Shown here piece by piece: positions 25,816-50,255 of a stretch of DNA of 64,000 nt. The notes beneath the pieces were generated by a model, which saw only the letters and a program-made list of their open reading frames with translations, was not told where the DNA came from and did no database searches. Origin of the DNA: Saccostrea echinata (lineage: Eukaryota); the NCBI RefSeq assembly GCF_033153115.1, contig NW_026889781.1:7874001-7938000 (forward strand), given 5' to 3'. Position numbers and translations under genes: made by a program. Position 1 is the stretch's first letter. The number at the start of each line of letters is the position of its first letter.

Positions 25816-28278
25816 TTAGGCACATTCAAATTCTTCCTCAGAATCCGATTCATCCGATGAAGGCTGGGAATGAATCTCAATATCATCCCCTGTGTGGACT
25901 TTAAGATGATTTTCAAGAGCCCGCTTGCTACCACATTTTTTTTCACATACTTCACATGAATAAATGTGCACGGCAGACTCCCCGGTGTGTGTCAACATGT
26001 GTCGCATCACATGTTCCTTCCTGCGGAACCGACGCCCACAAACATCGCACTCGAACTCTCTCCTTGTATCATCAATGCGAGGATTATACGTACATTTCTT
26101 CTTCTTGCCTTTATGGTTCTTCATAGTTTTAACTTTCTCTTTTAAATTTTCGTGTACGTCTTGATGACGTTTTAGTGAATATGCGGTGGAGAAACTCGTG
26201 TCACATTTTAAGCATTTATGGCGTGGAGATTCTGGAAGTCCTTGATGCGTTTTCTGGTGTCGGAGTAAATTGCTTATCTGAGTGAAATCTCGTCCACATT
26301 CCTCACATGAGTAAGGGCGCTCACCCGAGTGAGTTCGCTTGTGTCCATTTAAGTGATGAGCATGCTTAAACCCTTTTCCACAAATCTCACATACAAAGGG
26401 GCGCTCAGTTGAATGTATCTTCATGTGGTTTTTCAAATGATGCTGTAATTTTGCAGTGTAATTGCACTGTCCACAAGCAAATGGATAAACATAGGAGAAT
26501 CCTTCACCATTACTAGTCTGATTAGAAATCACCATTGCTTCGATGTTGGTTTGAATGGCACTTTGGATATCATCTTTCATTTCTTGACTAAGGTCAAACT
26601 CACACTGGTCTGTCCCTGCGTCTTCAATTTCCTCCTTCACAGAAGAGCTTGTCTCGGCAGAAGGTGCTTCAGTGTCAGAATTATGTCTTAAGAACATTCC
26701 CTGTTCTGATGCTTCAATAAATATTTCTTCATCTTCTCTCCTGTCCGTTTTTCCTTTGCTGCTAAACTTATCACATGGATTTTTTCCTGTAGTATCAGAA
26801 TAATTACAGTTATAAGTGACACCTTTCATTTTTAATCTCTTCAACACCACAACGGGTTGTTTTCCTGATAATATACAAGATGCGGGAAGTCTTTTCTGAC
26901 CATTATCTTTGATCTGTGGATCTTTTGCTTTGAGTGAGCTATGTTTTACAACTGTTAAATTTGAGTCATTATTGGTGTCCATGTTCACAGAATTTGTATC
27001 ATCTATCCCTGTGGTTGGTTTTATGAAATTGTCTTTTTCTGTTTTATCATACCTGCATCCCTCCCACTTTATTATGGTAAAACCTTCTTGTAGATTTTTC
27101 TCTACAGCTGTCTCTGAATTTACATCATTGTTTTCCCTTGACTCTTTCTGATTATAGAAAACAATGCTTCTTTCAAAACATTCACCTCTTTCAGAATCAC
27201 TAATACTATTTTCAGACTTTATCCCCTTTTCCTCTAACACTCCCTGCTGAGTATTATACATCTGACCTAGATATTTTTCTACCCTTTTCTCCTGTTCATC
27301 TGTCTTGTGTTTTATAGTAACAACTTCATCACCAAGAGAGGGTAAGGATATCATAGAATTTGGATTATCCATTCCTGTGGTTTGTCCGTTTATCTTGTCA
27401 TCAAAACAGTTCTCTTTTTTATTATCATGCATTGGCTCCTTCCACTTTATAATGGTAAATCGTTCTTTTAAATCTTTTTCTGCATATCCTTCTGTATTGG
27501 CAACAGTGTTTGTCCTTGACTCTTTCTGATTTTTAAAATCTTTGTTTCTTTCAAAACATTCATCAATTTCAGACTCACCAATACTATTTTCAGACTTAAT
27601 TTCCTTTTCTCCTAACATTCCTGGTAGAGTAAGATCCATCTGAAATCCTCCTTGCTTTGTCTTTTGTCCACCTGCTGTGTGCTTTATAGAAACAATTCCA
27701 TCACTGAGAGTTGGTGAGGATATCATAGAATTTGTATTATCCATCCCTGTAGTTTGTCTATTTAAATTATAATCAAAACAGTTCTCTGTTTTAACATGCA
27801 TGAGATCCTCCAACTTTATTATGGTAAGACCCTCTTTTACATATTTCTCTGCATCTGTCTCTGGATTAGCATCAGTGTTTGTCCTTGATGCTATCTGATT
27901 GTAGAAATCATTGCTTCTTTCAAAACATTCACCATTTTCAGAATTGCTTATAGTATTTTCAGTAATTGCTTCTTCATCTAACATTTCTGGTTCAGTATTA
28001 TCCATCTGACATTTCACTTGCTTTCTCATCTGTTCATCTTCCATGTGCTTTATAGCAACTAGTCTGTCACCTAGAGATGGTGATGATGTCACATGACCTA
28101 TATTTCCTTCCTTCTTTATTGAAAATTCCATCTTTGAAGGTTGTGATATATTAGATTCTTTACATCCTTGAGATGTTTGTGATTTATTTGTCTGGGTGGT
28201 GAAGTGCACAATATTATCATTGGTAATGTTGGACTCATGTTTGATACATGTAATTGAAAGAGAGATAGCTTTCTCCAT
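25816..28278 (-). CDS. C2H2 zinc-finger protein (820 aa from first ATG, single coding exon): six C2H2 fingers, three ~122-aa N-terminal repeats
   Basis: Six CxxC-x12-HxxxH fingers with STERPF/SGERPY linkers. First ATG at 28278 lies downstream of an in-frame TGA and a splice acceptor (ttctcctag| at 28369). Confidence 0.9.
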   Translation of the reverse strand: MEKAISLSITCIKHESNITNDNIVHFTTQTNKSQTSQGCKESNISQPSKMEFSIKKEGNIGHVTSSPSLGDRLVAIKHMEDEQMRKQVKCQMDNTEPEMLDEEAITENTISNSENGECFERSNDFYNQIASRTNTDANPETDAEKYVKEGLTIIKLEDLMHVKTENCFDYNLNRQTTGMDNTNSMISSPTLSDGIVSIKHTAGGQKTKQGGFQMDLTLPGMLGEKEIKSENSIGESEIDECFERNKDFKNQKESRTNTVANTEGYAEKDLKERFTIIKWKEPMHDNKKENCFDDKINGQTTGMDNPNSMISLPSLGDEVVTIKHKTDEQEKRVEKYLGQMYNTQQGVLEEKGIKSENSISDSERGECFERSIVFYNQKESRENNDVNSETAVEKNLQEGFTIIKWEGCRYDKTEKDNFIKPTTGIDDTNSVNMDTNNDSNLTVVKHSSLKAKDPQIKDNGQKRLPASCILSGKQPVVVLKRLKMKGVTYNCNYSDTTGKNPCDKFSSKGKTDRREDEEIFIEASEQGMFLRHNSDTEAPSAETSSSVKEEIEDAGTDQCEFDLSQEMKDDIQSAIQTNIEAMVISNQTSNGEGFSYVYPFACGQCNYTAKLQHHLKNHMKIHSTERPFVCEICGKGFKHAHHLNGHKRTHSGERPYSCEECGRDFTQISNLLRHQKTHQGLPESPRHKCLKCDTSFSTAYSLKRHQDVHENLKEKVKTMKNHKGKKKKCTYNPRIDDTRREFECDVCGRRFRRKEHVMRHMLTHTGESAVHIYSCEVCEKKCGSKRALENHLKVHTGDDIEIHSQPSSDESDSEEEFECA

Positions 28279-28540
28279 AGTTAGCCTCTCTGCAATTAAC
28301 GTTCTAACAGTACATGCATGCACGCCATCACGATTTCAGTACAACTTCCATATATTTTTCTTTAGTACCTAGGAGAATAAAAATTTCACATTAAATCTGT
28401 GAGAACAACTTCACAAACTCGTCCAGGCAAGGTAAAGTAATATGTTGAAACTTGAATGAACATGAAAAATGATAGAACAGATTACTAAAATGTTTTTGAC
28501 TAAAAATAATACCCTATATTTGTTTGATACATGTAATTTT

Positions 28541-29280
28541 ACAGGTCCAGCACAATCTCTTGATTTAGCTTTATAGCTTGAAAAAGCTATATAGCTTTAA
28601 TAAGCTATTCAAAATAGCTTGATTATGTGCAGTTTTTCAGAAAAATGTTTTTTGTAAGAAATAGACAAAAAGTCACAAGTACTTGACTATTCATATATGT
28701 GCTATGGGCTATCAAAAAAAAAAAACAACCGAAATCAAAGATAGTTCTAACATTGCAGCATTTTAAGCAAAAGATGAATTTCCATTGTTTGAGTAACTGT
28801 ACACTACCTTATGTGCGTTGAGGCGTGGATAAGTATGATTGCTTCTCATTGTACTGAATTATTACCAATCAATTATCTTGTTGACCATAATTGGTCTCTT
28901 TTAAAATTTCAATGAAGAAGTAACTGTATCAATTTGCTTTATATAGCCCCAAAACTTTTAGAACTGAGAGTACAAAGTCTCTAAAGGAGATGCAATTTGA
29001 TGAGTAATTTTTACACGCATTATTTTCAGAAGCGTCTCCACACGAGTGAAAAATTCTCGAGAGGGACGTTAAACAATAAACAAACAAACAAACAAACAGA
29101 AGAGTTTAAGGTTGAATATTATCACTGCACCAAGGTGCGACTTTTTGTTCATGCGGAGAAAATGACATATTTAAGAAAAAAAGTGTGATAAAATAGCTAA
29201 ATCAAGCTATTCTGAATAGCTTAATAAAGCTATATAGCTAAATCAAGCTATAATGCTACATCAAGCTATACATATAGCTA
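28541..29280. mobile_element. Left part of a MITE split by the 13-kb transposon (right TIR remnant at 42382-42408)
   Basis: Left end ACAGGTCCAGCACAATCTCTTGATTTAGCT is the reverse complement of agcTA|[insert]|TAaatcaagagattgtgccggacctgt; subterminal atagct/aagcta repeats; a related fragment lies at ~57497-57663. Confidence 0.75.
29030..29098 (+). mobile_element. 3' tail fragment of the tRNA-SINE family
   Basis: cgtctcc...gagtgaaaaattctcgagagggacgttaaacaataaacaaacaaac matches the reverse complement of 50964-51020. Confidence 0.75.
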
Positions 29281-29694
29281 TAGTCTGTCCCACCAAGCTA
29301 TTGTAACCACTTTTTGCAACATATCTCAAAATATATAAATACCTTGGCCTTCAACTTAGGTCCGATCGATAGATCATTTTTTTTCCAATTTTCCTCCATT
29401 TATCCGAACCCTCGAGTTCAACCGGTGTATTGACACGGCGGCAAATTCAAAGTCTACGGGGATTTAACATTGCCAAAATGGCTGCCACTTCGGCAAGGGA
29501 TCATATATTATTTTTTACTTATTCGTTATTTTCCGTAGCCTTCCGTCAATGACGTCACTGACGTTAAACGCAGCGCACGTTGACGTTATTTACGCATGCG
29601 TTACTGTCGTCAGAAGATATCCGTTTCGTTTTATACTTATATTTATATACATATTTTTTATCCATATACCATTATTATACAAGAAAATTCAAAA

Positions 29695-32600
29695 ATGCCA
29701 AGACAGAAAACGAAGAGCCGGCAAGTAGCAAAGTCATTGAAGGTATTAGCCTCAATACAGAATCATGAAATATCTGTCGACAGTTTTTTATCACTGTCGT
29801 TTGCAACTGTGGCTGAACTATATTCCGTAAAGTCATATAAATTTGAAGCCGTAAAAATCATTAATAATTTTTGGAGGCATTTTTTGTAAAAATCCTGATT
29901 CAATTATCTCAATAGCTGTAACAAAAAAAGTTCACTTTACCTCACGAGAACAAAAATCCCATGAACACAGGGGAAGTCATCGATACAATCACCACACACC
30001 ATACATTTGTATAATCCAATACATTACACTAAACCATATTTTAAGCAGTATATCCGAAGTGAATTGCAGTCCTTTAAAGCACTTTGCACACATAAAAATT
30101 CCAAATTTATGAACAAGTGCAATAATTTTGCCAAGTTTTCAAGCTGTCTGCATAACATTGCGTCAAGAAACGACCTTGCCCTTTGGTATGGGTGACAGGT
30201 CTATTCAGACCCGCATAAATTTTACCCGTCCTATATAAATGTATTGAAAGAAAGAAAAGAAGATTAAATCCAGCAGTTATGATTTTATTCTTGACTACAT
30301 GATATGTACACTTTCCAAGTCATACTTAAATATATATTCAAAAGAACTATTTATGAATATATATCAAAGAATGAATACAGCACATGTATAGATATTTTTT
30401 TGTAAACAAGAAAGATAACTCTTAGATGAAGAAATGTAATTCAATAGTTGCCAAGAGTTATTTCCCACAAATTTTACTGCTAAGCTTCAGTTAAAGAAAA
30501 ATAACAACAAATTAACCAAATGTTTACTTTTTAATGGTATCTCCAAAAATTTTCAGATATGATATTTTAAACAACAACAAGAATGACTTTATTCTTTGAA
30601 AATAGAGAGAAAACATGAATATAGTGATGCCATGAGTTGCAAAACATGCATGTTAGTTAAAATTGAAGTTATTTGTAAATGTCAAGAATATGAGCCTTTC
30701 ACAACTTCCATAAACAAATGACTATCTGATGGATGAGATTTTAATTTTTTTTAATGTACCTATGTCAGAAATCATAAATCAAAATTGTCTCTGTTTTAAA
30801 TGCATGGAAGAAGTTGTGATTGGACAACTGTATGAAATTATAACCGAATAATTAAGAGATCAACAAGAACATGTTTTGAAATCAAAAACAAAAAAGTCCA
30901 TGGGAACAAGTGTTCATTTGCTAAACAGTTAAGGTTTAGGAAATAAGATTTTATGCGAGCAACAGTTACTGATATAGGAATTGTACATTTTTTTCTTGGA
31001 TATATAATTTTCAAAAATTTTTCAGTCATCATGATAAAAAAATAGTTGTGCTAAAGTCGTTGTGTCTCAAATGAACATTTTTCTCTGGAGAATTTTGTTT
31101 CAGATTTCAAGACTGTAAAAGGGTCAATATGGCAGATACATAACTGCAAGGGCTCAAATAATCTCCCATGTTTAATGTGACTGTGACCCAAGGGCACTGA
31201 CTTTGAAATCAGACAATATTACAGTTGAACTTGGTTATTTCGTATATTGATATCTCATATACTATAGATATGTTGAAGTACTTTGGCAGTCCAAATCATC
31301 TTCTTTTATGTTTTTTACCCTGTTTATATTTCGAATCATTGAATATCTGAGTTTAATCTTGGTTCAGTCTAGTTCATAATAATGAGGTTTGACGGTATAC
31401 GAAAGGCATAAAGAAAACTGTTCTTGATAGTGTAAAAGGGGAAGGGGGAGAGAGCGATTATCTGAAAAACTGTTATCTCTTTGAGAAGCTAAAATCATTT
31501 TTCCTTACATAACCCAAAAGCATAGGCAAGCAAGCTATTATGATCAAAGATTATTCATGTAAAACTCTGTTCAGATGACAAAACTTGCCCCCCCCCCCCC
31601 CCGCCTTACCACTGAGGGACAATAACAATAGGTCCATTTGCTCAGCTGCTGCTGATTTTTACGAACTATTCCCTCTTTCTTCACATGAAAATTTGAACCC
31701 CCTAGTGGGGAGGGGTGGGGGTCTTGATTTATGCAGACCTCAATCAACACATGGAAATACTTGAGATCCTGGTACATTTAAAAGGTTATTGAAACTTTAA
31801 TCCAATAAATTACAATGTATATAAAGCTACATGTATGATCCCCTATACTAACCGTCCCCCAATACCCTGGGGCCATGACTAGAACAAATTTTAATGCACT
31901 ACTCCAGGATGCTTGCATTTCAAGATTTACAATCATGACCTTGCTGTTCTTGAAGACTTTGAAGATTTTTTTTTTATATTCTGATGTAAAACTTTGATCC
32001 CCTTTGAAAAACCTTCACTTGTGTATAATTGTGATGAAGATGAAACTCATGTGCAATCATCCTAAGGTAGTGTAGATTTAAGTTTGTTCAAATCATGACC
32101 CCTGGCGGTAGGTTGGGGTCACAATGGACGATCAAAATTTTACATAGGAGTATATAGGAAAAATCTTCTCAAGAACAGCAAAGCCATGATTGGTCATATT
32201 TATATGGAAGCATCATCAGGTAGTGCAGATTCAAATTTGTACGAATCATGACCCTTGGGGGTAAGACAAGGCCACAATGGACGATCAAAGTTTTATATTG
32301 GAGTATATAAGAAAAATCAGCAAAGCCATGATTGGTTATTAACTATTTGGAAGTATCTTAAGGTAGTGTAGATTCATGTGTGTTCAAATCATGACCCCCT
32401 AGGGATAGGGTGGGGCCACAATTGATGAAAGTTATACATAGGAATACATAAGAATTTTTTTTTAAAGTCTCCTTTTCAAGAACAGTACAGCCATGGTTGG
32501 TCATATTATATGGAAGCATCCTCAAATAGTGTAGATTCACATTTGTTCAAATCATGACCCCCAGGGGGAGGGTGCACGTGGGACCATAATGAAAGTTCAA

Positions 32601-35600
32601 ACTTGTAGGGGAAAAAAGTCACAGTTAGTCAAAGAAATATGTAAGCATCTTTAGTAAGTGTAGATTCAATTTTGTTCAAATCACCCTCCCCCCCCCCCCC
32701 CCCCCTCTTTATAGGGGTAGGTTGGGACCACTTATGCATTAAAGCTTTTCAATACTGAACTTTTCCTAGCCACAGTGCTCAGGTGGGTATGTGGCCCATG
32801 GCCTCTTGTTTATCTTGCAAAAAAGATTTTAAATCTTTTCCTATATAAAACTTTGATCTCCTAATCATGATTTGAACAAATATGGATCTACACTATGTCA
32901 GAAACCTTCTATATAAGTTTCATATTATCTGTCCAAGTGGTTGATTGTGGTTCTGAAAAGGAAGATGAAACTGTGAAAAGTTTACAATAAGGTCTAAGAC
33001 AACAAACATGGAGGAATATTGATGAGAAAAGCTCACTTGAATCTTTGGCTCAGGCAATTAAGCTTTAAAAGTTGAAAATTTGAAGAAAAAAAAAAATAAC
33101 AGATGATTACACAGGCAGATGCCAGACACAGGGTGATCAGTCAAGCTCTTAGGTGTGGTAAGAAAAAAGAAAAAAATCTAAAGAAGGAAAAAAACATTAT
33201 TTTTGGTATTTTAATTTCCATTGAAAAATTACTCAGAAAAGGGGCATAACTCATGCTATAATAGTAAATTTTGGTTAAAATCTTGGTGCATTTTTCTCCC
33301 TAAAAAAAATTGAAATTAAATAATTTTTGTTTTATGATATTTATAGATGCAGTTAAACATTTTATACCTAGAAAATATTTAAGTGTATTCTTTTAGAGTA
33401 TATTAAGTTGAGTTTCTTCACCTGATAATAACATTTTAGGGTAAAAGTTATCAGAAAATTGGTCAAAATAAATTTTGTCTCTAAACCTTTACATATAATA
33501 TTTCAAGACTATAAAATAGTCAGAATGGCAGATACATAACTTTGAAATCACACAATATGCAGTTGAACTTGGTTTTCTCAAATACTGATATGATTTTTAT
33601 CCAACTCGGGTATTGCAATTATTTTGAAGTTCATTTTTGCAAGATTGACTGGACTATACATATAACATAAAATGGATGACCATGGGCTGAATAAATTACT
33701 AAAATCAGGTGTCTCAGAACTATTAATTAATTTAACAAAAACATTTTTGTAATCCACAGGTTGTTGACATTCTCAAGAAAATTTACAATTACTTTAACAA
33801 AGAGATGAGAGATGGAAAAGTTAAAAACCTCTCCAATCCTCTAAGGAGGCTTGCAACTGCCACAGGTATTGATTAGTAGATTACAGTAAAACACGCTTAT
33901 AACAGAGTGCCAGGGACAGACAATTTTCCTTTGTTATAAGTGTAATTCCTTATATCCATTAAGTGTTCAATATGTTTTAAAGTCAAGGGGAATGAAAATC
34001 ATTTTGCAATAAGCATCCATTCATTAAAAGCGTGTTTGTTATAAGTGTGTTTAACTGTATCCTACAATAAATCCTATTACATGTACAAAGAAATGTTTTG
34101 ACGAGCAAATTGCAAATTTTTTTCAGGGGGAGGAGGGGGGATTCATTAGATCAGTGCATGGAATTCTTTGATATTGATGGTGAACTGTTAATTAGTTTGA
34201 TGGATACATTGACAATATTCATATTCAAGTACTTTTGTTCTAGAAAACATATATATAATCTTTACAATTCATCCTCTCACATGTAAAGTACATGAATGTT
34301 TTAACATAATTTAGGAATATCTGAAAGGAATTTGAAGACATGGATAATTCCTGATCCTGTTGAGGAAGTGGTGGAGGACCTGCAAGTCCCTCCTGTAGAG
34401 CAGAAGTTCCACTCCAATAAGGGGCTTGATGACTTTGATGAGGACCTGGTGAAAAGGACCATCCATGAGATGCAGTTGAGGGGCGAGTATGTTTCTCTCC
34501 GTCGACTGTCTGGTGTGTTGGTAGAAAGGGGTATCAGGATCACCAAGTCATCACTGGGACGGCTTGTGAAGAAACTTGGATTCAGGTAAGGTACACTAGA
34601 GGCAAACAATTGATTTTAAAAAATTACCTACAATGCACATGATACAACCATTTTATCATTAAATTAATAAATGAAGCATTTTATATTAAAGCAAAAACAA
34701 ATCATGTTAGATAGAGACATTTGCTTGCAGAAAAAAAGAGTTTTTCATTTTTAGCTCACCTCGACGAAGTCAAGATGAGCTTATGCTATACCCCCGGCGT
34801 CAGCGTTAGCGTCGGCGTCCCGGTTAAAGTTTTAGTAGCAAGTCCATTCCCAAGTAACTATAAGCCCTACCTGGACCAAACTTGCATGGATGATGCATCC
34901 AGGGATGGACACTACCACACTTGCTTCGGATGCTGGATCTGACCTAGATTTTCCAGATGAGTGACCAGGTTAAAATTTTTGGAGCAGGTCCATTCCCAAG
35001 TAACTATTGGCCCTACCTGGACCAAACTTGCATGGATGATGCATCTAGGGATGGACACTACCACACTTGCTTCGAATGCTGGATCTGACCTAGATTTTCC
35101 AGATGAGTGAATTTTATCCATATTTTTACCAAATTAGCATGGATGATGTAGCTAGGGATGGTCACTTCCAGACTTGCTTTGGATTCTGAATCTGACCTAC
35201 ATTTTCCACGAGTGACCAGGATAATTTTTTTGGAGTAGCTATATAACATTATGGCCTGTTATGACTAAACTTGCATAGATGGTGCATCTAAGTGAAAACT
35301 TCCAGACTTACTTTGGATGTTGGAACTGACCAAAATTTTCTTGATTAGTAAACAGGATAAACGTTTTTTGAACAGGTCTATTTCCAAGTAACTATAAGTC
35401 GTACTTAAACCAAACTTGCATGGACATTGATCTTGGGATGTACTCTAAATAAAAAAAAATATGACGTGAAATTTGCCTTACTTAAAGATAACATTCGTCG
35501 AGGTGAGCTTCGTAATCTTTGATTACCAATGTTTCAAAATGTCATTCTTTTTTTTTCAGGTTCTACAAGACTGGTTCAAATCGGAGGTACATTGGAGAGC

Positions 35601-36748
35601 GTAATGACATTGTCAGTATGCGCCATACTTACCTGAGGTCCATCCGAAACTTTAGAGAGTTGGGTCGTCCTATTGTATACTTGGACGAGACTTGGTTGAA
35701 CACCAATCATGTAGCGAGGGGAGATTGGGTGGACTGTCCTAGGATATCTACCTCTGCCTTTGAGTCGCATCGTGGAGGTCATGGGCGCTTCGTCCCACCT
35801 GGGAAAGGCTCTCGTCTGATAATCGTGGATTCTGGTTCTTCGGCTGTAGGCATGATCCCGGGATCAAGCCTAGTTTTCGAGTCGAAAACTGGCACTCAAG
35901 ATTATCATGATGAGATGAACTCAGGAAACTTCACGAGGTGGTTCACTGAGCAGTTGCTCCCTAATCTACCGGGTAATTCGGTCATCGTGATGGATAATGC
36001 TTCCTATCACAGTCATCTGGATCCCGAGTCTAAGTGTCCGACATCGTCGGCGCGAAAGGCCGAGATCCAGTCTTGGCTTGATAGAAAGGGTATCCATTAC
36101 ACTCCGGGAATGATTAAGGCCGAATTACTCACATTGGTGAAGCAACATAAGCCTCGTCCAAAGTATGTGATTGACGATTTGGCTTCACAGGCAGGTCACA
36201 CAGTTTTGCGTCTACCTCCTTATCACTGTGAGCTGAATCCCATCGAGCTGGTTTGGGCTGAATTGAAAAGCTTCGTCGCCAGGAGCAATGCCACGTTTAA
36301 GAAAGATAAAGTGATGGAGCTATTCAATCAAGCAAGATCAGCTTACGATGCGGAGAAGTGGAGGAGGGTAGAGAGCCACGTGATAAATGAGGTAGAGACA
36401 AAACTGTGGAAACTTGACGGAGTTCAGGACAACGAGGTCGCTCCGGTGATCGTTGACTTGACAGACTCGGAAGACAGTGACAGTGACTTAGACACAGATT
36501 CTGGTGATGACGAAAATGACGCTGACTCTGACGTGTCCATGAACTCCGTCGAGGAATCTGATGATGAAGTCACTTGCTGCATATGTGGTGACTATAATGC
36601 TCCTGGACGGTCTCGAAAGATTGCCTGGGTGGAATGTGAGTTGTGCGAAAGATGGAGTCACCGCATATGCACCAAGCCCTCTCTAAAGTCAGGTAAGTGC
36701 CTTCGATGTTGGAACAGTTTGTATGGACTGAATCCTCTTTCTTCATGA
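29695..36748 (+). CDS. Intron-containing DD83E transposase with acidic tail and PHD-like finger, ~537 aa; exons 29695-29742 (less certain), 33760-33865, 34315-34585, 35560-36748
   Basis: HTH-like N-terminus (IYNYF...LATATGISERNLK; TKSSLGRLVKKLGF), catalytic YLDETW / MDNASYH / LNPIE with 83 residues between D and E, C-terminal C4HC3 finger; in-phase GT-AG junctions, no stops. Confidence 0.88.
32040..32812 (+). mobile_element. Cg170-like Helentron fragment in transposase intron 1 (further inverted fragments at ~31600-32000 and ~32820-33065)
   Basis: Same ggaagcatcctcaggtagtgtagattcaagtttgttcaaatcatgacccc units and 3' CTCAGGTG...GGCCCATGG.CTCTTGTT end as 4910-5922. Confidence 0.75.
33884..34057. 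mobile_element. Tigger/pogo-like MITE in transposase intron 2
   Basis: TA|CAGTAAAACACGCTTATAAC ... GTTATAAGTGTGTTTAACTG|TA. Confidence 0.7.
34750..35520 (+). mobile_element. HINE-type element with ~133-bp tandem units filling most of transposase intron 3
   Basis: Sub-TIRs AGCTCACCTCGACGAA / TTCGTCGAGGTGAGCT, ggcgtc repeats, 4-5 tandem units, 3' GTAATC...GATTAC hairpin. Confidence 0.75.
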
Positions 36749-38483
36749 GCCTTTCCTCTGATGATTGGAGAACTGTTCCTCTTTAAAGGTAGAAGAAAGA
36801 TTATTAATCATTGATGCATGTATCAGTTGGTGATTATAATATATGTGATTATATTTTGAAATACCCATATTTGAGAATAGTAAGCTATTACAATAAACCA
36901 TCGTTAAGTGACTTCTGAAACGTTAAGTTATTGATGCAAGGCAAAAGATATTTTGTGATGTCTGAAATTATAAATTATTCGAGTGGATGAAAGATAAGAA
37001 AAGTACTTTATTTAAATTTGAATACTTTGTTTTCATACTTGAAAAAGCTGCAAACAAATTTCTTCAACCAGTCTTCCTCACTGTCAAATCTGTGTCAGAT
37101 ATCTAAAATTAAAATGTTTTAAGAAAATATTTGCTTTCAATGATTAATACAGCATAAGAAATTACCTATACTGAATATTTTGGAACTATAGATACATGTT
37201 AGTGTGACATAAAGGCCCAATCAAAAATTAGAAAGTCCAAATAAGTAAAATAAAACATGAATATTTTATAATCCTTTGTTTTTCTTGAATTAGCTCTACA
37301 GATACAGCAGAAGGAAATTAAGGTATAGAAATACAGTGAATATTGAATTGAAACTTGTCAGTATCTAAGGGCAATAACCTATGTGAATAGGTCAATCACC
37401 ATAAAACTGAAACTACTAGTAGATTAAACATTAGCTCAGTACCTACAAACATAAGAAAAAAAAGACTAGAAAACTAACTATGACAGAACAACAATGACAA
37501 AATGACAGACATAAAGGGTAATAGTAAGCACTATCTGCCCCGTTCATTTCATGGTGGATGGGGGCAAAAAAGTCTTTTTATTTCATGTTATTTGGTTTAG
37601 AAATGTTTACAGTTAACATTCACTGGTGAATCTATGATACATGCATTGTTCAATGATTAATTATCTTTCAAAAGGTGGGACTGTGTGTAACTAATCTTTT
37701 TTCTGCATCTGGTCTATGTATTGGAGAGTTTATATTACATATCTGAAATCATTCTTATGATCCATGGGTGAAATTTTTATTCAACCAGCTATCACTGAAA
37801 GTAATGAAGATCATTATCATGATTATTGGTTTGAATTCCTATTTGCGGATCCATGCAAACTTAAATATACACTATATGAGAATGCTTGTATGTGAATTAC
37901 AATATTTGCCCCCGTGCTGTTTCATAGATGATTTCAAACTTCTTTTTTTTTAAATATACATTTATTATACAGACTCATAATAAATTTCATTCTATATATT
38001 GTTCGTGAAGTGCAGAAGGAAAACAGGACATAGATAAAGAAATGTTCATGTACAGAGTATGTGTGATTTAATATGAATACAAACAGATCTTCCTCTTGTT
38101 TATAGAACAAATCAGAATTTTATGGAATATGATTCAATGAGAACAGAACAACTGTATTTTTATAGTATCATCCCTTAAAAATGTTACATGTTTTTATTAT
38201 ACCTCTACTGATTTTTTTTCCCCTATATAACATTAGATTGTTAGATGTGACTAATTCTCTAGAAATCGTTAAGAATGGACTTATCCCCATGCATTTGTCA
38301 AGTGAGCTAATCCCTGCTTTGAGAGCCAATTCCCAGTTATCTGTAATCTTCTAGATTTTACTTTTATATTTGTATGATATGTGAATGGACTAGTCCCCGT
38401 GCATTAGTTCAGTTAGCTAATCCCTGTTTTGAAATCATGCCATCTGAATCATCTAAATTTTACGTTTGTATTGGTGTAATAAA

Positions 38484-38629
38484 ACAGTTAAAAGTATATC
38501 ATTGAGGGAGTTAGCAAGATTCCAGTTCCCCTCGACCAAGACTATTTCCCTCGGCTTCGCCTCGGGAAATAGTCCCGGCCTTGGGGAACTAGAATCTTGC
38601 TAACTCCCTCAATGATATACTTTAACTGT
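38484..38629. mobile_element. 146-bp palindromic MITE with GGCTTCGCC loop
   Basis: acagttaaaagtatatcattgagggagttagcaagattc...gaatcttgctaactccctcaatgatatactttaactgt forms a near-perfect foldback. Confidence 0.75.
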
Positions 38630-41047
38630 ATACTGTAGCTCTATCTTGGGGTTGAAATTGAATAGTGCACATGTAAGCATATACTGCATGATTAGTTACA
38701 CACAATGCCCTCTACCGAACCAACAAACCTGACTTTTGATGAGTGAAGCTGCTTCCCCTCCTCTGTATCTCCTGCATGTTAAATTTTCACAGGTCAGCAT
38801 TTAGTCTCAGTTTCTTATTGTGATCCACTTCTTCTCTACAATTGGGACTTGCATGATTAATATTTTTTTCATTTCTTATTATACTTATACTTTGTAAAAT
38901 GCAATCAACTGTAAAAAATACTGTACAAGTTTCAGTGGTTTTAATTCATTTGCAATTTTGATATTGAAACATTGTTTATTCAAGCATAAATATACATAAA
39001 TCCTACTGTGGTTCCATATTACTGTGATAAAATCTGCTCTGATATACATGTATGCTGTTATCTAACTTATGTACATAATCAATTGCAAGAAAAGTTGTAC
39101 AAATTTCATTGGTTTTAATTAATTCATTTGTAATTTTTTTCTTAATATAGTTTATTCAACTAATTAAAACAAAAATATATAAAATTCCTACTGTACTTTC
39201 ATTTTTGCATCATAAATTTACTGTGATAAAATCTGTTGTGATATATTTATTATATGTTATTGTTAAATTGTAATTATTTATTTTAAGCATATGAATTATG
39301 ATATCAACAAATTAACTAAAATGGTACTGTAATAATTAATTGATTAAATGTAATTGATTAGTTTTTCCTGTCCTTGTATACATTTTATACACTGTGATAA
39401 AAATTTTGCTGTGTTCTGCATTCTAAATCCACATGAATTTTCAATCTCTTTGCTTCTTTGTGATATAAGTACTTGGCTGTTAAACATTTTTTTCACTTAT
39501 TTACCTACTATGATTATCTGCAATTAATTTATTCAATTTGTATGAAAATAGCCTTATTCTTACACTTTAACTGTAAATGCTATAGTTCCATGCAGTGACA
39601 TGAATTTGTGATGTTTGAATTTTAAGATGTTTTCACACAGAGACATATAATTGCTATTTACAGGTAATGCATATTTGCACCAAATTCTTATACAGTTTTC
39701 TGTAACTGACTGTCTGTTTGCATTATGGTTTTATCATGTAATACTTAAGGTTCTTTCTACCAAACATTGAATGTGTACAAAGGTGGTGTGAAATGCACTA
39801 CAACAAAGCTAGTCATAAAAAAATAAACAATATATTATAACTAGCTGTTACGGTTTGTAGTCTAGCATAGCAGTAATTTACTGCATATGATTTATATACT
39901 ATAATTGTAACAAATCTAGACTACATTAACAAAATATGGTGAATTATATACATATGTATACCTACATGGGGCCATGAATGGCATATTACAGTGGTTATAT
40001 TCAGTACACATTTCATTGTTGGTTTACATGATATGGAGTCACTGGCACGACAGAGATGTCTGTAAACTTCCGTCTTTGTGACATTACCTAAATGCTTACA
40101 TACAGGGCAAGATATTTAATTTTTTTAATTATCTCATTTCTACGTTTGATATACCAGTATAACAAATAGTTTCTGTGTGTAAAATATTTAAGAAGAATTT
40201 CAATTTTTGGCTGAACTTTTAAGTCCTGAGCTTTTTAGATGTATTCTTAAGTTATTATCATGATTATTGTAAAAAAAAAAAAAAAAATCAGGAAATACAC
40301 AATATGAACTTTACTGCAAATTAAAATGGATTGTTAAATTAATACACCTTTAAGTAACTACATGCTCATGCTGTACGTGTAACTAAATATTATATGTATG
40401 CTATTTTGTTTAATTGTGAAATAAATTATTTGCTGTTATTCCACACCATGTTTTGTTTTTTTTTCAGATATATGAAATTTTATTATTGAAATCCTTAGAC
40501 AATATGCTATACATTACTCAGTAATGTGGTGCCCAGTGATTGACATGTTACAAAAGCTATGGGTCGAATTAGCAAAGAATCAATATCCCTTTCAAACAAG
40601 GAAAAGTTTAACCGTGAGACCTATAGCTATCACCGTCAAAGGTTTTCTGTATTACATCAATAAATTATTACTGTCCTGTGTGATATTAATCCCATTAAAA
40701 GACAATTACAGTGAGGAAATGAGGAATGAAATATTATAACAATTGAGTATCTGATGAAATTTTGACATGACTATTCCATTTACATGTGTCTATGTGTTCC
40801 AAAATTTTCTATATGAAAAAATATGAATTTCCTGTCATATATAATGTAGTGGAATATTGAGAATGTCTGTCTTAACCGCTTTGAGGTTGTAACAACAGTA
40901 ACCACATTTGTTTACATTTTGTTTACCATTGGGCATGATCTTGCCAATCTGGAAATGAAAATCCTCATCAAAAGTTACAAATCTTAATATTTAAAATTAA
41001 AATGAATAGTGTACACATTTACGTACATTGAAGGCTACAGATTTTAG

Positions 41048-41080
41048 CAGGGACCTATATACTATATATATAGGTCCCTG
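41048..41080. mobile_element. 33-bp mini-element: 14-bp TIRs with 7-bp TSD
   Basis: ATTTTAG|CAGGGACCTATATA-CTATA-TATATAGGTCCCTG|ATTTTAG. Confidence 0.7.
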
Positions 41081-41390
41081 ATTTTAGTAAACAAGGTCTG
41101 CATCTTTTGTGGAATCAATATGTCATAAATGGTAGGCTGGGATACAGAAAACTTCTATATATTATATATAGCAGTAAAAGTTTTTTTTTCTTTCTAATAT
41201 ATGACAGACCATTCATCCAGGTGGATTTTTTTCTTACAAATCTAGTGTTAAATGATTTTTAAAATCAATTTATTTGCTCTTTGTAACATAACTACACAAT
41301 AAATATAATACCTCTATATAGAGATTTTGGGATTAAAGAAGTTCTCAGAGATTTTTGAGTGCCAAAGATTATATTATGGTAATATATCAA

Positions 41391-41428
<38 letters not shown>

Positions 41429-44400
41429 AGAATTGATTCTTCAGGGTGTTTTGTACTTCATAATTATTATTATTATTATTATTATATATCTTTGTTTTTC
41501 TTTACTGTTGAATTGTATTTGTACAAAGTGAAAGTAGACATATTTCACACATGGTTTATGTAATGCAAAATTTGCCAGCTTCTATCTATATAATTCAAAA
41601 TCAGCCAGCGTTGTGATTATTTGTAAAAAAAAAAAAAAAAAAAAGGTATTTTTTTTAATGCTTTCTTTTCCTGTGAAGTTCTATGTTTTGATATCAGATT
41701 TTAGTTGACCGTTTATGTTTTTTTTCAAGGACGAATGTATTGATCAGCTGTGTATTGTTTAGCCTTTAGAAGCATAGAGTATTTTTTTCTTTCTTTTCAT
41801 TGCACTTACCAGCTTCTGATGTGTGCATTTTATCATACTTTTAGAACTGATAACACTTCTTTCTGGATGTCTGCTTTGCAATAAGAAAAACTTACGTTTT
41901 ATAGATAGGAAGGTGTAAACACATCTCTTGCATCTTGTTGACATCCGTTCTAGGAACAGTGTACGTATCCACTTGTACTGTATTGATTCGGTCTGCTTTC
42001 CCATTGTTCGTTATAAACCCGTTAAATATACTTGAATATGAAAAAATACTTATATATTTTTAGAAAAACACATTGAATTATTTTCTCCGAATTTTTAATT
42101 TTTTTTGGTAATTTAATTTGAAAAGAACGACTACTCCATCGATAAACTGGTTTCCCGCCCCGTGATCTTGACGATAATGGACGAGTTTACCATGTTAAAT
42201 CCCCGTAGACTTTGAATTTGCCGCCGTGTCAATACACCGGTTGAACTCAAGGGTTCGAATAAATGGAGGAAAATTGGAAAAAAAATGATCTATCTATCGG
42301 ACCTAAGTTGAAGGCCAAGGTATTTATATATTTTAAGATATGTTGCAAAAAGTGGTTACAATAGCTTGGTGGGACAGACTATAAATCAAGAGATTGTGCC
42401 GGACCTGTTGAAAGACAGGTAACTTTCTCCATCTTCGGCCTCTCGCAACCACCGTTCTAACAGTACTCATGCATGCATGACATCAGAGACATCATCCTTA
42501 TCTTTTTCTATAAAAATAATTAAAAAAAAATCCCATTAAATCTGCAAGATCAACTTCATGAATTCGTCAAGGCAAGTTGTAAAAATGAAAAGTCCTAACT
42601 TGAATGAACATTTAATATGATAAGGCAGATTATAAAAAAATGTATTTAACTAAATTTGATACCCTATAGGAATTGTTAACTTCAATACTTACCCTTTGGC
42701 CTTCGCTTTCCGATTTCAAGACTGGAAATAAACATAGCTTGATAATATTAAAACCAGAAGTGGGAAACAATTAAATTCCGAAAAAATAGCTGTAAAGCGA
42801 TGCTGACAGAACCCGGGCACTATCGATCTTAACTCCCTTCTTCGGACTACTTATATTTAACCACAAAAAAACCTTGGCCAATGAGAAACCAGCCAATAAA
42901 CAATACAACAAGGAATAAAAAGTTAAAAACAAAACAAAAACTGAGAAAAATCTTTAGTTTTACTAAATGATTACCTCTTTGTTATACTACATGCACTACG
43001 GGTTCATATCACATATAATACATGTATTAAAGTTCATAAAGGAAACTGTCTTTTAGATTTTTTATGTGCCTAAAAAATAAAATGCCTCATATAAAATATT
43101 AGGATTTTACCAAAGGTGCTTGAGGATTCGACCCCCTCCCGATATAGACCCAGCGGGCCTTTCTGAATAATGGACAGAAGGATGAAACGTTCGCTCAACT
43201 AGGACCTTAGGTCATCAGCTCAGTTCTCAATTATCAAAACTGTTTACACCGCGACAAAATGCAGTGTATTGCAACCGTAAAGTGAAAATAGAATAAACCG
43301 CACTACTGTGAAGCCTTTACAGTGTAAAACAACAAACAGTAAATCTATTTTTGCCAAAGGAATAATCATTTGATATTAGGAAAGATACGGGGGAGGGGGG
43401 CATTGACTGCAATAGGCCCCCTATTATAAAATATAAGTTATAAAGCAATGGATTACGTTGGGTTACCTGTGGTCTCCTTAATGATATTATTATTCCATGT
43501 AAGGCAACAGTATCTATTTGACAAGTACCTAACCTCTGATCTCCTCAGTAGTATTTCAGAGTAGACGACCTCCTAGCTGTCTCTGCATTCGCAGATCTAA
43601 CAGGCAGGGGGAGGAGGAACATTGTAGGTCTTACCCCCTACCCCGCTTGGACTCTTCAGTGATCCTTAAAGATAATGGAATAATTATTTGGTAATAAATT
43701 GTATTAACTGTCCTTTGGTCTCCCTTATGAGGTCATACCGACCTTATCAGTTTAACACTTTAGTAAACCTCTGGTTATTATTAATTTTACAGAATAGATG
43801 TACGCCCTGTCTTGCGAGGATGGGGGCTGGAGTTCACCTCCCCCCTTTCCCTGGAATTTACACTTATCAAATTTATAAACGAATCAAAACTATATTTTCC
43901 AAAATAATAAACTTAAAAAACATAGGTCCATTGTCAATTGCTTCTGGGATACATATAATGTATATGAAGAAAAAGTTGTCTAATATCATCCCCCATCCAA
44001 TTACATAAATTTAGAAAATTTATTTGGAGAAATTGTAAACTTGTTTGCTTGTAAAAAAAATCAGGGTCTCATTTTTTGTTTGGAGTGGATTTGAAAAATA
44101 ATTCTAATAATGAAGGAGAATTTAAAAATTCCCATATTTATAAATGTTTACGAGATTAAACTTTAGTAATTCGTTCTATTGAGTCGAAGTCCCGAGTTGT
44201 CAACGGCTTTGTCTTCTATGACCTCTCCAATTGTCGACATCTTTTCCAGTTATTTCTCTTTGCTAGACGTTCATACAGAGAAGATTGACCGTCCATAACC
44301 AAAGAAATATATTCGATGTCAAAATTTCAACCGGCCATATTGTGTATTTTATTTATTTAGCGTAAAAATCCATTCAATATATGTTTTCTTACGATAAGCT

Positions 44401-44443
44401 TTACGAGTTCTATTGACCATTGACACCTATGGCGTTTCAGTAC

Positions 44444-46753
44444 TATCACGATGAAAATTTTACTGTTATAAGAGATTTTTCTAGTTTCTAAAATTAAGTT
44501 ACTGTTTTGTGTTTTTTTGAACAACGCTTTCTAAATTCTTGAGCTTTTCAAATCATTTTCTTTATTGAATTTACGACTCTTAATCTTTATTGAATTAAAA
44601 CATCGGCGATTCAGATAATCCAATCCAGTTGGGTTTAACGCCTGTCATCGTTTGATATTGCTAAATTATCTTTAGGCAAAATAACATCAAAAGGACGATA
44701 ATCTGGCCCTCAATTATTTTAAGGGTCTACTCAAGTGTCAAAACCTTTATCTATTTATCTCCAAATGTCATTTTTACACATGTCACTCTATAATTGTTAT
44801 ATATACTGTTGAATTTGTTTTGGATGATCAGTCGGAATCGGACAGCCGTCCCGAGTACACCGACCTGTATCAAAATTTGTTAGTTCCATATTAAAAGTTA
44901 AAACGCTGGTCGGAGTTTGTCTCAAATCTGTTTGATAAGACTCATAGATAGAAAGGAACGTAAATCGTGGCTGACAGAATCCGTGAGCGGCATCGTCAGG
45001 GAACTCAAAGAGAAGTTCTTCAAGCGAGCAATAAGACGTTCATAGTTTCTACATAGTCTTATTTTAGCACAGCCTGAGTGTTGATCGGGCGAGATTATTT
45101 AAAAAAAAAATGTGCTAATTTGTGCAGATATCCGGGTACAACACCACCTCTCATGAAGCTAAGCGAGTATTCCCCAAATCTCAAAGTTTCCGAGGACGAC
45201 CAGCTTTAACATTGGACTGACATGCAGTTCCGACCACAGTGGCAGGTTTCAGCGCCGCTTTGCAGCAGATGTAACAGACGGCATTACTCCGTCTGCAACG
45301 CCTTGGAGAAACGCTGCCATAGATGTGGAGAAGAGGGACACTTTAGCAGAGTGTGCGGAGAACGTTCGTGCCGCGCTGTAAAATCGGATGCAAAGAGGAA
45401 AAGGGACACCGAACGACTGCAGGATTACAACAGCAGGAAAAGACTGTTCCGGGTACTTCCATTTGCAAACATAAGTGATTCCAAATTTAAAGAGTGTGTC
45501 AATTTAAAGTCAGTGTTTTCATCAGAAGTTCAGTCCGTGGTAAAAGATCTCCAATATACAAAAGCGCTAATGAAAATGGACATTGAAATCCTAGAATGGA
45601 AATTGGAAAAACAGTCAAAGTCGAACGATGAAAAAGATCAACAGATAAAACTGTATTCTACATACTTAAACTATGCCGTGTCAGATCTAAAGAAACTTTC
45701 CGGACTTGTTTCCCATTACAACTGGCTTCTGGAAAATTATGAAATGGAACACATCGTACTGCGATCAATCAAACAGAACTGTATGTGTAAAAGAGATGTT
45801 GAAAACAGTAAACTTGTCCGAAAGGAATATAGACAGTTTAAAGATTCTGAATTATACAAAGAAATTTTGAACACTAAATTTTGAATATTTACTATTGCAC
45901 AATGTTTTATTTTTTATTTACATGTGTATATTTTTTTTAAGTTTGAGGACAAACTTTTTGTGGCAAGGGGAGAATTGTCATATAAAAATTTAAATTGAAA
46001 AAATTCTAAATTTTTGTAGAGGACAGATTATCACGATGAAAATTTTACTGTTATAAGAGATTTTTCTAGTTTCTAAAATTAAGTTACTGTTTTGTGTTTT
46101 TTTGAACAACGCTTTCTAAATTCTTGAGCTTTTCAAATCATTTTCTTTATTGAATTTACGACTCTTAATCTTTATTGAATTAAAACATCGGCGATTCAGA
46201 TAATCCAATCCAATTGGGTTTAACACCTGTCATCGTTTGATATTGCTAAATTATCTTTAGGCAAAATAACATCAAAAGGACGATAATCTGGCCCTCAATT
46301 ATTTTAAGGGTCTACTCAAGTGTCAAAACCTTTATCTATTTATCTCCAAATGTCATTTTTACACATGTCACTCTATAATTGTTATATATACTGTTGAATT
46401 TGTTTTGGATGATCAGTCGGAATCGGACAGCCGTCCCGAGTACACCGACCTGTATCAAAATTTTCAGTTCCATATTAAAAGTTAAAACGCTGGTCGGAGT
46501 TTGTCTCAAATCTGTTTGATAAGACTCATAGATAGAAAGGAACGTAAATCGTGGCTGACAGAATCCGTGAGCGGCATCGTCAGGGAACTCAAAGAGAAGT
46601 TCTTCAAGCGAGCAATAAGACGTTCATAGTTTCTACATAGTCTTATTTTAGCACAGCCTGAGTGTTGATCGGGCGAGATTATTTAAAAAAAAAATGTGCT
46701 AATTGTCATATAAAAATTTAAATTGAAAAAATTCTAAATTTTTGTAGAGGACA
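44444..46753 (+). mobile_element. Non-autonomous retroelement with split direct repeats A1-[gag-like ORF]-PPT-B1-A2-B2 and 4-bp TSD
   Basis: A1 44444-45119 and A2 46029-46703 (about 4 differences); B1 45976-46025 identical to B2 46704-46753; PPT AAGGGGAGAAT before B1; GTAC at 44440-44443 and 46754-46757. Confidence 0.85.
45222..45884 (+). CDS. Gag-like protein (220 aa): double zinc knuckle followed by predicted coiled coil
   Basis: CSRCNRRHYSVC...CHRCGEEGHFSRVC (CX2CX4HX4C) at the N-terminus; intact ORF inside the split-repeat element. Confidence 0.7.
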   Translation: MQFRPQWQVSAPLCSRCNRRHYSVCNALEKRCHRCGEEGHFSRVCGERSCRAVKSDAKRKRDTERLQDYNSRKRLFRVLPFANISDSKFKECVNLKSVFSSEVQSVVKDLQYTKALMKMDIEILEWKLEKQSKSNDEKDQQIKLYSTYLNYAVSDLKKLSGLVSHYNWLLENYEMEHIVLRSIKQNCMCKRDVENSKLVRKEYRQFKDSELYKEILNTKF

Positions 46754-48320: not shown

Positions 48321-50255
48321 GGTGGTATCTTGAGACTGTTTAGAACAAGGGATGCTCGCTCCTATGCATCTGATCCAATCTCTGGAATTTAGGGATCTGT
48401 GTTTTATGCTCTGTTCTCAAATTTCCCTTGTTAATATGATTCTTGAGAACGATCTCTGTTTGGTATCCCAACCTTTTTTTTTATTGTTCAGTATATGTTT
48501 GTAGTTGAATTATATCGGTTAAATTTGTTTGATTACAGGATATCAAAAACTAAATTTTGACTTAATTTTATTATCATTTAAAGTTCTTAAAGTCTGTGGA
48601 TTTTCTTTTTTCTATAGAAGCAGAGGGAACCTTTATTCGTATTTTGATATAATTTTTATTTGTGTTATGATATAAAAGAACTACTGTTATCTTTGTTTAT
48701 ATAAGATAGGAGAAAATATAGAGTGAAAGAAGTACATGTACATTGGCTGCTAAAACTGCTGATAAAAATACATGTTTTGTTTGATAAAGTTAAGTAGTAA
48801 AACATTTGTGATCGGGGGAGGGGGGGGGAGAGGGGGGGGGGGGGACACCTGTTCGACACCGAGTCTTATGACGTCAACTTGTTGTTGTGTTTAAATGTTA
48901 AAAACATTACCTTCACGTCTCTGCTAATCTAATAGAAAGTAAATCTATATAAAGTTATGAATATCATTGTATTGGAGTAAGACAAAGAAAACTGTTTATT
49001 AAATAAAATCCATTCAAAATATAAGGTGACCTGAGGTCACCGTATTGATATAGATGAATTTACTTTTGTGCCTTTAATGCTTGAAGAGTTCATATAATAT
49101 TTTATTACTACGCAAAATGACGAACTATTTGCGGGTGACCCAAGGTCCTTGTTGAGCATAAATTTCATCCTCCTGCATCTTGCCGCAAACTAGTGCGCTC
49201 TCGAGGAAACAACAAAAAGTTAAAAAAAAATGAAATAAATAAATAAATAAACTCACCTTGTTTTAATGGATATTGCAGATAAATAGTAGATTAAGAGTCC
49301 TTTATTAAAATTAGCACTGTCAGGCTTCGGTTTGGAAATGCAACTTACATGCATATGACGTCATATGTTATGTGACATCAGAGTCTAGATGTGCCAAATG
49401 AAAAGACGGATCTAAATAAAGACTGAATAGGTATCGGTGCTCGCCCTAACGGTCGCACTGTCAACATTGCAATTGTTGAATTTCCACATTGTATGGTGTT
49501 CAATCAGAAATGAAAATGGGATAATTTTCACTAATTTTGAAGTTTATCATTAAGTATGCATTTAGTATGCGACATCATGAATATCACAATGATGCTTTAA
49601 CCATGTAAGAGTACATTCTGTGACCAGAATGCAGTTAGACTGTTTTTCGATATGCAAAAACGTTTATAAAAATAATGAAACATTTCAAAATGCCTAATTA
49701 AAATTTATATAGTAAGTTAAGTAATAATACTGCATAAAAACATGTCTCAATAATAAACTATATCCTAACAGTAATATTTGTGTGAGCAAGCCTTAAACAA
49801 TAAATGTACTAAAACAAATGGACTGAGAATAGTTTTAAGATGACAGATATTTATTTCGGTAGTAACTGTTGTAATCTTACTCGATAAGGACAGGTGTTGC
49901 AACCATATTCTGTAAATGTTGGTCATTTGATCTTCAGCAGTTTACAGAAATGGTGTAAACACACGGGAATCTAATTTAGTATACTATTTGAACATCTGTT
50001 TACAAGTTTTAATCGTTAAAGTGCATTTCAAAAAGACAGCTGAGGCTAAGTCAATCATCGAATGAAAATGAAAACTGAAAAACTTTCGTGTAAATAAAAC
50101 GTGGTTCTTCTCTTAAATAGAATTTCAAAAAGCGGTAATTTTTTTGCTTTCTTTGATAACAATTATCCTTCCTCGATTTTTCTTTAGAATATGAGGCTTG
50201 GGAAGTATTGCTGTTTTAAATTATATAATTGTTGAACTTTTGTACATTTTCATGG

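What the first reader, a model, noticed from the sequence alone, without database searches (positions are those of the whole stretch)
36460..36748. Transposase carries an acidic tail fused to a PHD-like finger (possible chromatin reader)
Seen: after the catalytic domain comes a ~38-aa D/E/S tract, then CCIC-x16-CELC-x4-HRIC-x9-CLRC, a C4HC3 pattern with a WVEC motif, in frame to the stop. Known: PHD fingers commonly read histone H3 tails. Inference: this transposase may choose targets through chromatin marks, which would fit its position near the 5' end of a host gene. I am not aware of this fusion being a standard Sailor feature, but I cannot check that here.
Basis: partly seen in the sequence, partly recalled or inferred. 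Interest (0 to 1): 0.7.

Follow-up and report, generated by a model that had tools for sequence, protein, structure and literature searches.

The report
Oyster Sailor transposase with PHD finger
An intact 13-kb cut-and-paste jumping gene of the Sailor family encodes an enzyme that ends in a conserved PHD zinc finger, which likely grips methylated histone H3, but its insertion sites show no measurable pull towards promoter-like DNA.

Summary
It is the end of a 537-aa, four-exon DD83E transposase in a 13.1-kb element (188-bp TIRs, TATA duplication), a Sailor member. The finger is a real PHD. All eight ligands are invariant in 14 of 14 homologues, and 7 synonymous versus 0 replacement changes separate two subfamilies. 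It keeps the two tryptophans and the acidic pocket with which KDM5A PHD3 reads H3K4me3. It marks one branch of Sailor (oysters, mussels, other molluscs, a nemertean); 0 of 83 homologues outside that branch have it. The acidic tail is ordinary (95 of 115 Sailor homologues). The targeting inference was tested and not supported. Insertions go to YTATAR, and a weak CpG-richness signal (P=0.013) vanished in a pre-set replication (P=0.67 and 0.96); the proxy is weak. PHD fingers on transposases are known (Ginger1, Mutator, RAG2), and the same subtype ends pogo-type enzymes. The Sailor founding paper lists near-identical oyster elements but its main text never mentions the finger. Verdict: a new variant of a known kind, likely a chromatin tether; binding is untested.

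The parts
29283..42379 (+). Whole Sailor element, 13,097 bp, flanked by TATA on both sides
29283..29470 (+). Left terminal inverted repeat, 188 bp, begins GT
   Evidence: 98% to right TIR
42192..42379 (-). Right terminal inverted repeat
29695..29742 (+). Transposase exon 1 (ATG, 16 codons), inferred
   Evidence: GT-AG and open frame in six copies of two subfamilies
33760..33865 (+). Transposase exon 2 (first half of a predicted helix-turn-helix), inferred
34315..34585 (+). Transposase exon 3 (DNA-binding region; weak HTH hits)
   Evidence: RNA depth in a related species
35560..36748 (+). Transposase exon 4: DD83E catalytic domain, acidic linker, PHD finger, stop
36455..36568 (+). Acidic D/E/S tract, 38 aa, predicted disordered; common to Sailor transposases
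36575..36709 (+). C4HC3 PHD finger with two-tryptophan cleft and acidic pocket residues

Best explanation
This is an intact Sailor (DD83E) cut-and-paste transposase whose C-terminal PHD finger, held on a flexible acidic linker, likely binds histone H3 methylated at lysine 4 and so would tether the enzyme to active chromatin, while the insertion site itself is set by the DNA word YTATAR. Shown: the element, the reading frame, the finger, its conservation, selection on it, and the target word. Inferred: the exon joins; zinc binding; H3K4me2/3 binding through the two Trp (matching KDM5A W1625/W1635) and two acidic residues (matching D1629/D1633). Also inferred: the tether works at the donor ends, where the element's own promoter lies just inside the left TIR, or broadly on open chromatin, rather than steering insertions to promoters. 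The finger was likely gained once in a spiralian branch of Sailor, from a PHD subtype that several transposon superfamilies carry.
For: Element ends and TATA duplication. Six copies give complete 536-537-aa frames. Eight ligands and one Trp are invariant in 14 of 14 fingers, the other Trp in 13 of 14; an acidic residue follows C3 in 13 of 14 and C4 in 9 of 14. Between subfamilies the finger has 7 synonymous and 0 replacement differences, P=1.6e-5. Best PDB profile matches are KDM5B, AL3 and KDM5A fingers; KDM5A PHD3 uses exactly these positions (PMC9172573 passages). The linker has pLDDT <50 over residues 294-335 of exon 4. All 35 PHD-bearing rows fall on one side of a branch (SH-aLRT 90), with 0 of 83 on the other side. 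Poly(A) reads of a related species cover exon 4 evenly through the finger.
Against: No binding was measured. The oyster finger is trimmed: a short second loop and no aromatic residue before the last Cys pair. It is net basic (9 K/R against 4 D/E), unlike some relatives. It scores just under Pfam's cut-off, and its model ties between PHD and FYVE folds with no Foldseek match at E<=0.001. No chromatin bias was seen at insertion sites. Most Sailor transposases lack the finger, and two complete ones inside the branch (P0053, P0071) end without it, so it is not needed for transposition in general. The donor-end idea has no direct evidence.
Confidence: 0.45

Rival explanations
1. The finger reads H3K4me3 and steers new insertions to promoters.
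For: Reader residues are intact. An exploratory test gave higher CpG o/e in 250 bp beside 51 ends than at 211 random YTATAR sites (0.79 vs 0.62, P=0.013). The window's copy is 1.0 kb from a host ORF start, and one full copy abuts a histone gene array.
Against: That P was one of 12 comparisons. The pre-set replication on 34 new ends gave 0.67 vs 0.62 (P=0.67) and, against local sites, 0.70 vs 0.68 (P=0.96; 17 of 34 higher). An earlier 1.5-kb test was also null (P=0.30). 0 of 95 end loci held an H3 gene. The proxy is weak and old insertions are filtered by selection, so the idea is not excluded.
Confidence: 0.15
2. The finger is a structural part of the transpososome that binds the TIR DNA or dimerises, like the cross-brace cysteine-rich domain of piggyBac.
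For: Bivalve fingers are net basic. The piggyBac C-terminal cross-brace finger binds DNA and is essential (PMC5861402 abstract start; PMC8086355 passages). The TIRs here are long (188 bp).
Against: Other members of the branch have acidic fingers (4 K/R against 9-10 D/E) yet keep the tryptophans. Subfamilies with different TIR sequences have identical fingers. Most Sailor elements transpose without it.
Confidence: 0.18
3. The finger binds a non-histone host protein that has an H3-like N-terminus, or another silencing or repair factor, and protects or recruits for the transposase.
For: Some PHD fingers are solved with non-H3 partners (PHF2-VRK1 and MLL4-TET3 entries). The same finger subtype sits next to Ulp1 and OTU protease domains in other proteins and in Ginger1.
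Against: No partner is identified, and the conserved residues are those of the K4me3 and R2 sites.
Confidence: 0.15
4. The finger is a neutral passenger or a chance cysteine pattern.
For: Sub-threshold Pfam score; lost in two complete relatives.
Against: Invariant ligands across molluscs, a matching finger in a nemertean relative, and significant purifying selection.
Confidence: 0.03

Closest known systems
Sailor (DD82E) superfamily of IS630-Tc1-mariner (Shi et al. 2021, PMC8533490; parts 2-3 of 6 read, term search of the whole main text, supplement passages)
   Same: DD83E triad, the three motifs, TATA duplication, TIRs starting GT. The paper's Mo-Sacglo catalytic domain differs at 3 of about 119 printed residues (compared by eye).
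   Different: 13.1 kb against the reported 1.4-7.0 kb; four exons; C-terminal PHD finger, not mentioned in the main text ('PHD' 0, 'zinc' 0).
Ginger1 and Mutator transposases with Ulp1 + PHD (Bao et al. 2010, PMC2836005; passages)
   Same: A PHD finger at the C-terminus of a DDE transposase.
   Different: Other superfamilies; the finger follows a protease domain there; no chromatin role is discussed in the passages seen ('chromatin' 0, 'histone' 0).
RAG2 non-core region: acidic hinge + PHD (review PMC8355894; passages)
   Same: An acidic stretch followed by a PHD finger on a transposase-derived machine; that finger binds H3K4me3 and the hinge damps transposition.
   Different: RAG2 is a separate subunit of a Transib-type enzyme. 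No RAG2 chain appears among the 60 PDB profile matches shown, so this is an analogy only.
KDM5A/KDM5B PHD3 (PDB 2kgg, 2ma5; PMC9172573 passages)
   Same: Two-tryptophan cleft and acidic R2 pocket at the same positions.
   Different: Host demethylase domain with measured binding; the oyster finger has a shorter second loop and its binding is untested.
piggyBac and PiggyMac C-terminal cysteine-rich domains (PMC8086355; passages)
   Same: Cross-brace zinc finger at the end of a transposase; binds DNA (piggyBac) or the H3 tail weakly (PiggyMac).
   Different: Different ligand order or fold in PiggyMac; family-wide there, branch-specific here.

Membership tests
Sailor (DD82E) | D-to-E spacer of 78-111 residues | tested here: met
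   83 residues; range
Sailor (DD82E) | Motifs I/VVYLDET, VIIMDNA, HCELNPIEL | tested here: met
   IVYLDET, VIVMDNA, HCELNPIEL in the ORF
Sailor (DD82E) | TATA target-site duplication | tested here: met
   Both ends of the window copy; the four positions read T 29, A 28, T 28, A 29 of 29 parsed ends (30 loci)
Sailor (DD82E) | TIRs beginning GT or CC | tested here: met
   188-bp TIRs beginning GT
Sailor (DD82E) | Placement in the Sailor clade | tested here: met
   Near-identity to Mo-Sacglo and Mo-Cragig in the founding paper's alignment and tree file; no tree with outside ITm families was built here
Sailor (DD82E) | N-terminal DNA-binding domain | tested here: inconclusive
   Only weak HTH hits (E 0.014-0.06); HTH families in 2 of 17 homologues each
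PHD finger | C4HC3 ligand pattern | tested here: met
   Invariant in 14 of 14
PHD finger | Profile match to PHD | tested here: met
   13 of 14 members match PF00628 at E<=0.01; window copy 23.1 bits against cut-off 24; PDB profile hits to E=1.6e-7
PHD finger | Cross-brace two-zinc fold | tested here: inconclusive
   Model pLDDT 75; most top rows are PHD or FYVE fingers, tied, best Z 4.8 (rmsd 4.8, 61 aligned), no Foldseek E<=0.001
H3K4me3-reading PHD (KDM5 PHD3 type) | Two-tryptophan cleft and acidic R2 pocket | tested here: met
   W, E, E, W at the matching positions
H3K4me3-reading PHD (KDM5 PHD3 type) | Measured binding to H3K4me2/3 | not testable with these tools
   Needs a peptide or nucleosome binding assay

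The most novel reading that the evidence does not exclude
This Sailor branch has evolved, in one polypeptide, the control logic of the RAG2 tail: the family's acidic tail damps the transposase and the added PHD finger releases or tethers it on H3K4-methylated nucleosomes. That would make it a natural chromatin-gated Tc1/mariner-type enzyme, and the two-tryptophan PHD a swappable reader module shared by several animal transposon superfamilies.
Probability: 0.2. Interest if true: 0.75.

Novelty: new variant of a known kind. Interest (0 to 1): 0.45.

Why it matters
If the finger reads H3K4 methylation, intact young copies offer a single-protein Tc1/mariner-type system, with PHD-less relatives as natural controls, for testing whether transposases use histone marks to choose donors or targets. 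That question is open for the PHD fingers seen on many animal transposases. The finding also corrects the picture of Sailor in molluscs: elements of 12-13 kb with introns, whose ends and N-terminal exons are missed by short-range annotation.

Tried and rejected
Promoter targeting by CpG proxy: null at 1.5 kb, a nominal hit at 250 bp, not replicated. Two of the 34 replication flanks look duplicated and were kept; 1 of 35 was dropped by the TIR filter. Idea that the neighbouring C2H2 zinc-finger gene is cargo: rejected, it is single-copy and outside the TIR. Idea of a domesticated gene: rejected, there are TIRs, TSDs, near-identical dispersed copies and 230 exact end matches against 5 for the control. 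Complex prediction of the finger with H3 residues 1-30 from this genome: no verdict (score 0.29, mark 0.34; methylation cannot be modelled). RNA on the whole element was swamped by intronic repeats. On a sister copy, reads skipped intron 3 but landed about 75 bases inside the modelled exon 4 without GT-AG ends, so the modelled joins are not directly confirmed. Histone-array preference: one copy only. Earlier-findings search by sequence and by the full word set gave nothing. FYVE was considered from the fold search and set aside because the ligand pattern and profile are PHD.

Full report
Observation. The ORF 35516-36748 ends as described: a 38-residue tract with 27 D/E/S from 36455, then CCIC-x16-CELC-x4-HRIC-x9-CLRC (36575-36709) and the stop. 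Pfam gives DDE_3 for the core and PHD for the tail (E=7e-5 alone, 23.1 bits, cut-off 24).

The element. A search of the genome gave 23 matches at 14 loci. Comparing 50-kb stretches around ten of them with the window placed the shared ends at 29283 and 42379: 13,097 bp, 188-bp TIRs (98% alike) beginning GT, TATA on both sides. Other copies with both ends measure 11.7-17.3 kb. Four exons (29695-29742, 33760-33865, 34315-34585, 35560-36748), all GT-AG, give 537 aa with a D-D-83-E triad. Five sister copies from two subfamilies give complete 536-537-aa frames with the same joins. The joins are inferred from this conservation. Poly(A) reads of a related species (three runs, one study, mostly under 95% alike, unstranded) cover exons 3 and 4 through the finger and leave the intron empty, but their joints do not fall on the modelled acceptor. 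An exact 15-base end word occurs 230 times against 5 for the control; many pairs are about 5 kb apart, likely non-autonomous derivatives. The model of exon 4 matches Sleeping Beauty and Mos1 catalytic domains (E 5e-8 to 2e-7) and leaves the acidic linker disordered. The closest named proteins are from Saccostrea (96%) and Crassostrea (80-89%), so the host is likely an oyster.

Is the finger real and kept? It is present at 12 of 14 loci; the two others lack most of exon 4. Between subfamilies it shows 7 synonymous and 0 replacement differences (P=1.6e-5), against 19.5 and 12.5 in the catalytic part. Within a subfamily the counts are too small to test. In 14 homologous fingers, chosen by me as those with a complete pattern and low redundancy, all eight ligands and one Trp are invariant and the other Trp is in 13. 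A profile of these matches 70 PDB sequences, best KDM5B, AL3, KDM5A and BPTF. KDM5A PHD3 binds H3K4me3 with W1625/W1635 and holds R2 with D1629/D1633 (PMC9172573 passages). The window's finger has W, E, E, W at these places. The fold search confirms only a cross-brace-type finger, with PHD and FYVE tied. Against this reading: the oyster finger has a short second loop, lacks the aromatic residue before the last Cys pair, and is net basic.

Distribution. Of 2405 homologues I saw the best 120, a sample biased towards the query. The acidic tail is in 95 of 115 rows that could be scored, so it is a Sailor trait. In a quick tree of 132 catalytic cores, all 35 PHD-bearing rows lie on one side of a branch of 49 (SH-aLRT 90, not starred) and none among the other 83. 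The tool counts 14 label changes. By my reading of the sequences, 12 of the 14 unlabelled rows inside the branch are cut or frameshifted before or within the finger, and two (P0053, P0071) end normally at the acidic tail. One gain with at least one loss is the simplest reading, not a proven one. Named members with the finger are oysters, mussels, Solemya, Patella and the nemertean Tubulanus, plus a partial Ruditapes model. A library-wide profile search gave 1352 proteins at E<=0.001. Among the best 150, 128 of 142 parsed fingers have both Trp and 114 lie at a C-terminus. Pfam on 57 of the 150 showed this subtype beside DDE_1 (two pogo-type transposases), DDE_3 (two), Ulp1, OTU and YqaJ domains, and in host KDM5 and Alfin proteins. 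The finger is therefore a module used by several transposon groups; no single donor was established.

Does it steer insertion? The target is YTATAR: C or T precedes TATA in 27 of 29 ends. As a proxy for unmethylated, promoter-like DNA I used flank CpG o/e. A 1.5-kb test was null (P=0.30). A second, over four widths and three measures, gave one nominal hit at 250 bp (0.79 vs 0.62, P=0.013; 51 ends, 211 control sites). I fixed that test in the notebook and repeated it on 34 new ends: 0.67 vs 0.62, P=0.67; against local sites P=0.96. The proxy is weak, because much mollusc intergenic DNA is unmethylated too (recalled), the ends come from several subfamilies, and selection has filtered them. Strong promoter targeting is unsupported but not excluded. 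The window's copy lies 1,005 bp from the first ATG of a single-copy C2H2 ORF, on the opposite strand. It is inserted in the end of another palindromic repeat, and the spot is probably intronic.

Mechanism. Most likely the HTH region binds the TIRs, the DD83E core cuts and joins at YTATAR, and the finger on its 40-residue leash binds H3K4-methylated tails. It would hold the enzyme on active chromatin, possibly at the element's own left end, where promoter-like motifs (YY1- and CRE-like, labels recalled; 29475 and 29550) lie between the TIR and the ATG. Binding and the place of action are inferred. Rivals are promoter targeting, a DNA-binding or dimerising role as in piggyBac, and a non-histone partner.

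Against what is known. Every defining Sailor feature that could be decided was met, and the founding paper's own alignment holds near-identical oyster domains. Its main text has no 'PHD' or 'zinc'. Its supplement, cut when stored, has 'phd' three times, the two I saw being residues in alignments; Table S6 was not seen. Ten library searches listed no paper on a Sailor or Tc1/mariner transposase with a PHD finger. Most were seen as listings only, and subscription journals and Repbase are not covered. I recall, without a call, that bivalve L31 elements carry a second ORF with a PHD domain. PHD fingers on transposases are in print for Ginger1 and Mutator and for RAG2 with its acidic hinge; H3-binding cysteine-rich tails are in print for PiggyMac. 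Intron-bearing mollusc Tc1-like elements (TLEWI, DD36E, no TIRs) are a different group (passages). Earlier notes of this scan report PHD fingers on pogo, Zisupton, MULE and Academ-like elements (unchecked).

Verdict. A real, selected, branch-specific PHD finger on an intact Sailor transposase: a new variant of a known kind, with a testable but unproven chromatin role. Interest 0.45.

Noticed in passing
window 36000-36160 (D-to-E spacer of the transposase): 7 of 17 homologues match Pfam HeH/LEM (best E 1e-7). The scan gave no coordinates; the two predicted helices in the spacer are the likely place. The Sailor paper found no domain for this insert.
   Followed up: partly
G000:C86:3875067-3886755 (copy D; L027, L050): A full-length copy forms the edge of a tandem histone gene array, about 570 bp from an H3 gene; the left TSD is imperfect and the right flank does not continue the array.
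   Followed up: partly
window 33760-36898 against L026: Two subfamilies are 94% alike in exon 4 but 84% in exon 3, 70% in exon 2 and largely unalignable in introns, with different TIR interiors. This suggests exchange of the catalytic/PHD exon between subfamilies.
   Followed up: partly
window 28545-29282 and 42380-42407: The Sailor copy sits inside one end of a roughly 0.75-kb element with palindromic, inverted ends.
   Followed up: partly
window 28254-28518 and 42408-42668: A 270-bp direct duplication (73% alike) that includes the acceptor-like tract and start codon region of the C2H2 zinc-finger ORF 25816-28335. A strong donor-like site on the minus strand near 49256 could end that gene's first exon.
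   Followed up: no
window 34740-35530 and 31865-32900: High-copy repeats with 140-165-bp units inside introns 3 and 1; the first is absent from several sister copies; both attract very many poly(A) reads of a related species.
   Followed up: no
window 44411-46710: An approximately 700-bp direct repeat pair around a 224-aa ORF with a zinc-knuckle-like motif (45210-45884), resembling a small LTR or DIRS-type element.
   Followed up: no
window 8076-13330: Exons of a DnaJ (type A) co-chaperone-like gene on the plus strand; label recalled from motifs.
   Followed up: no
L109, L129, L130, L133, L134, L192: Ends that share the first 11 TIR bases and TATA but diverge afterwards: further Sailor-like families in this genome.
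   Followed up: no
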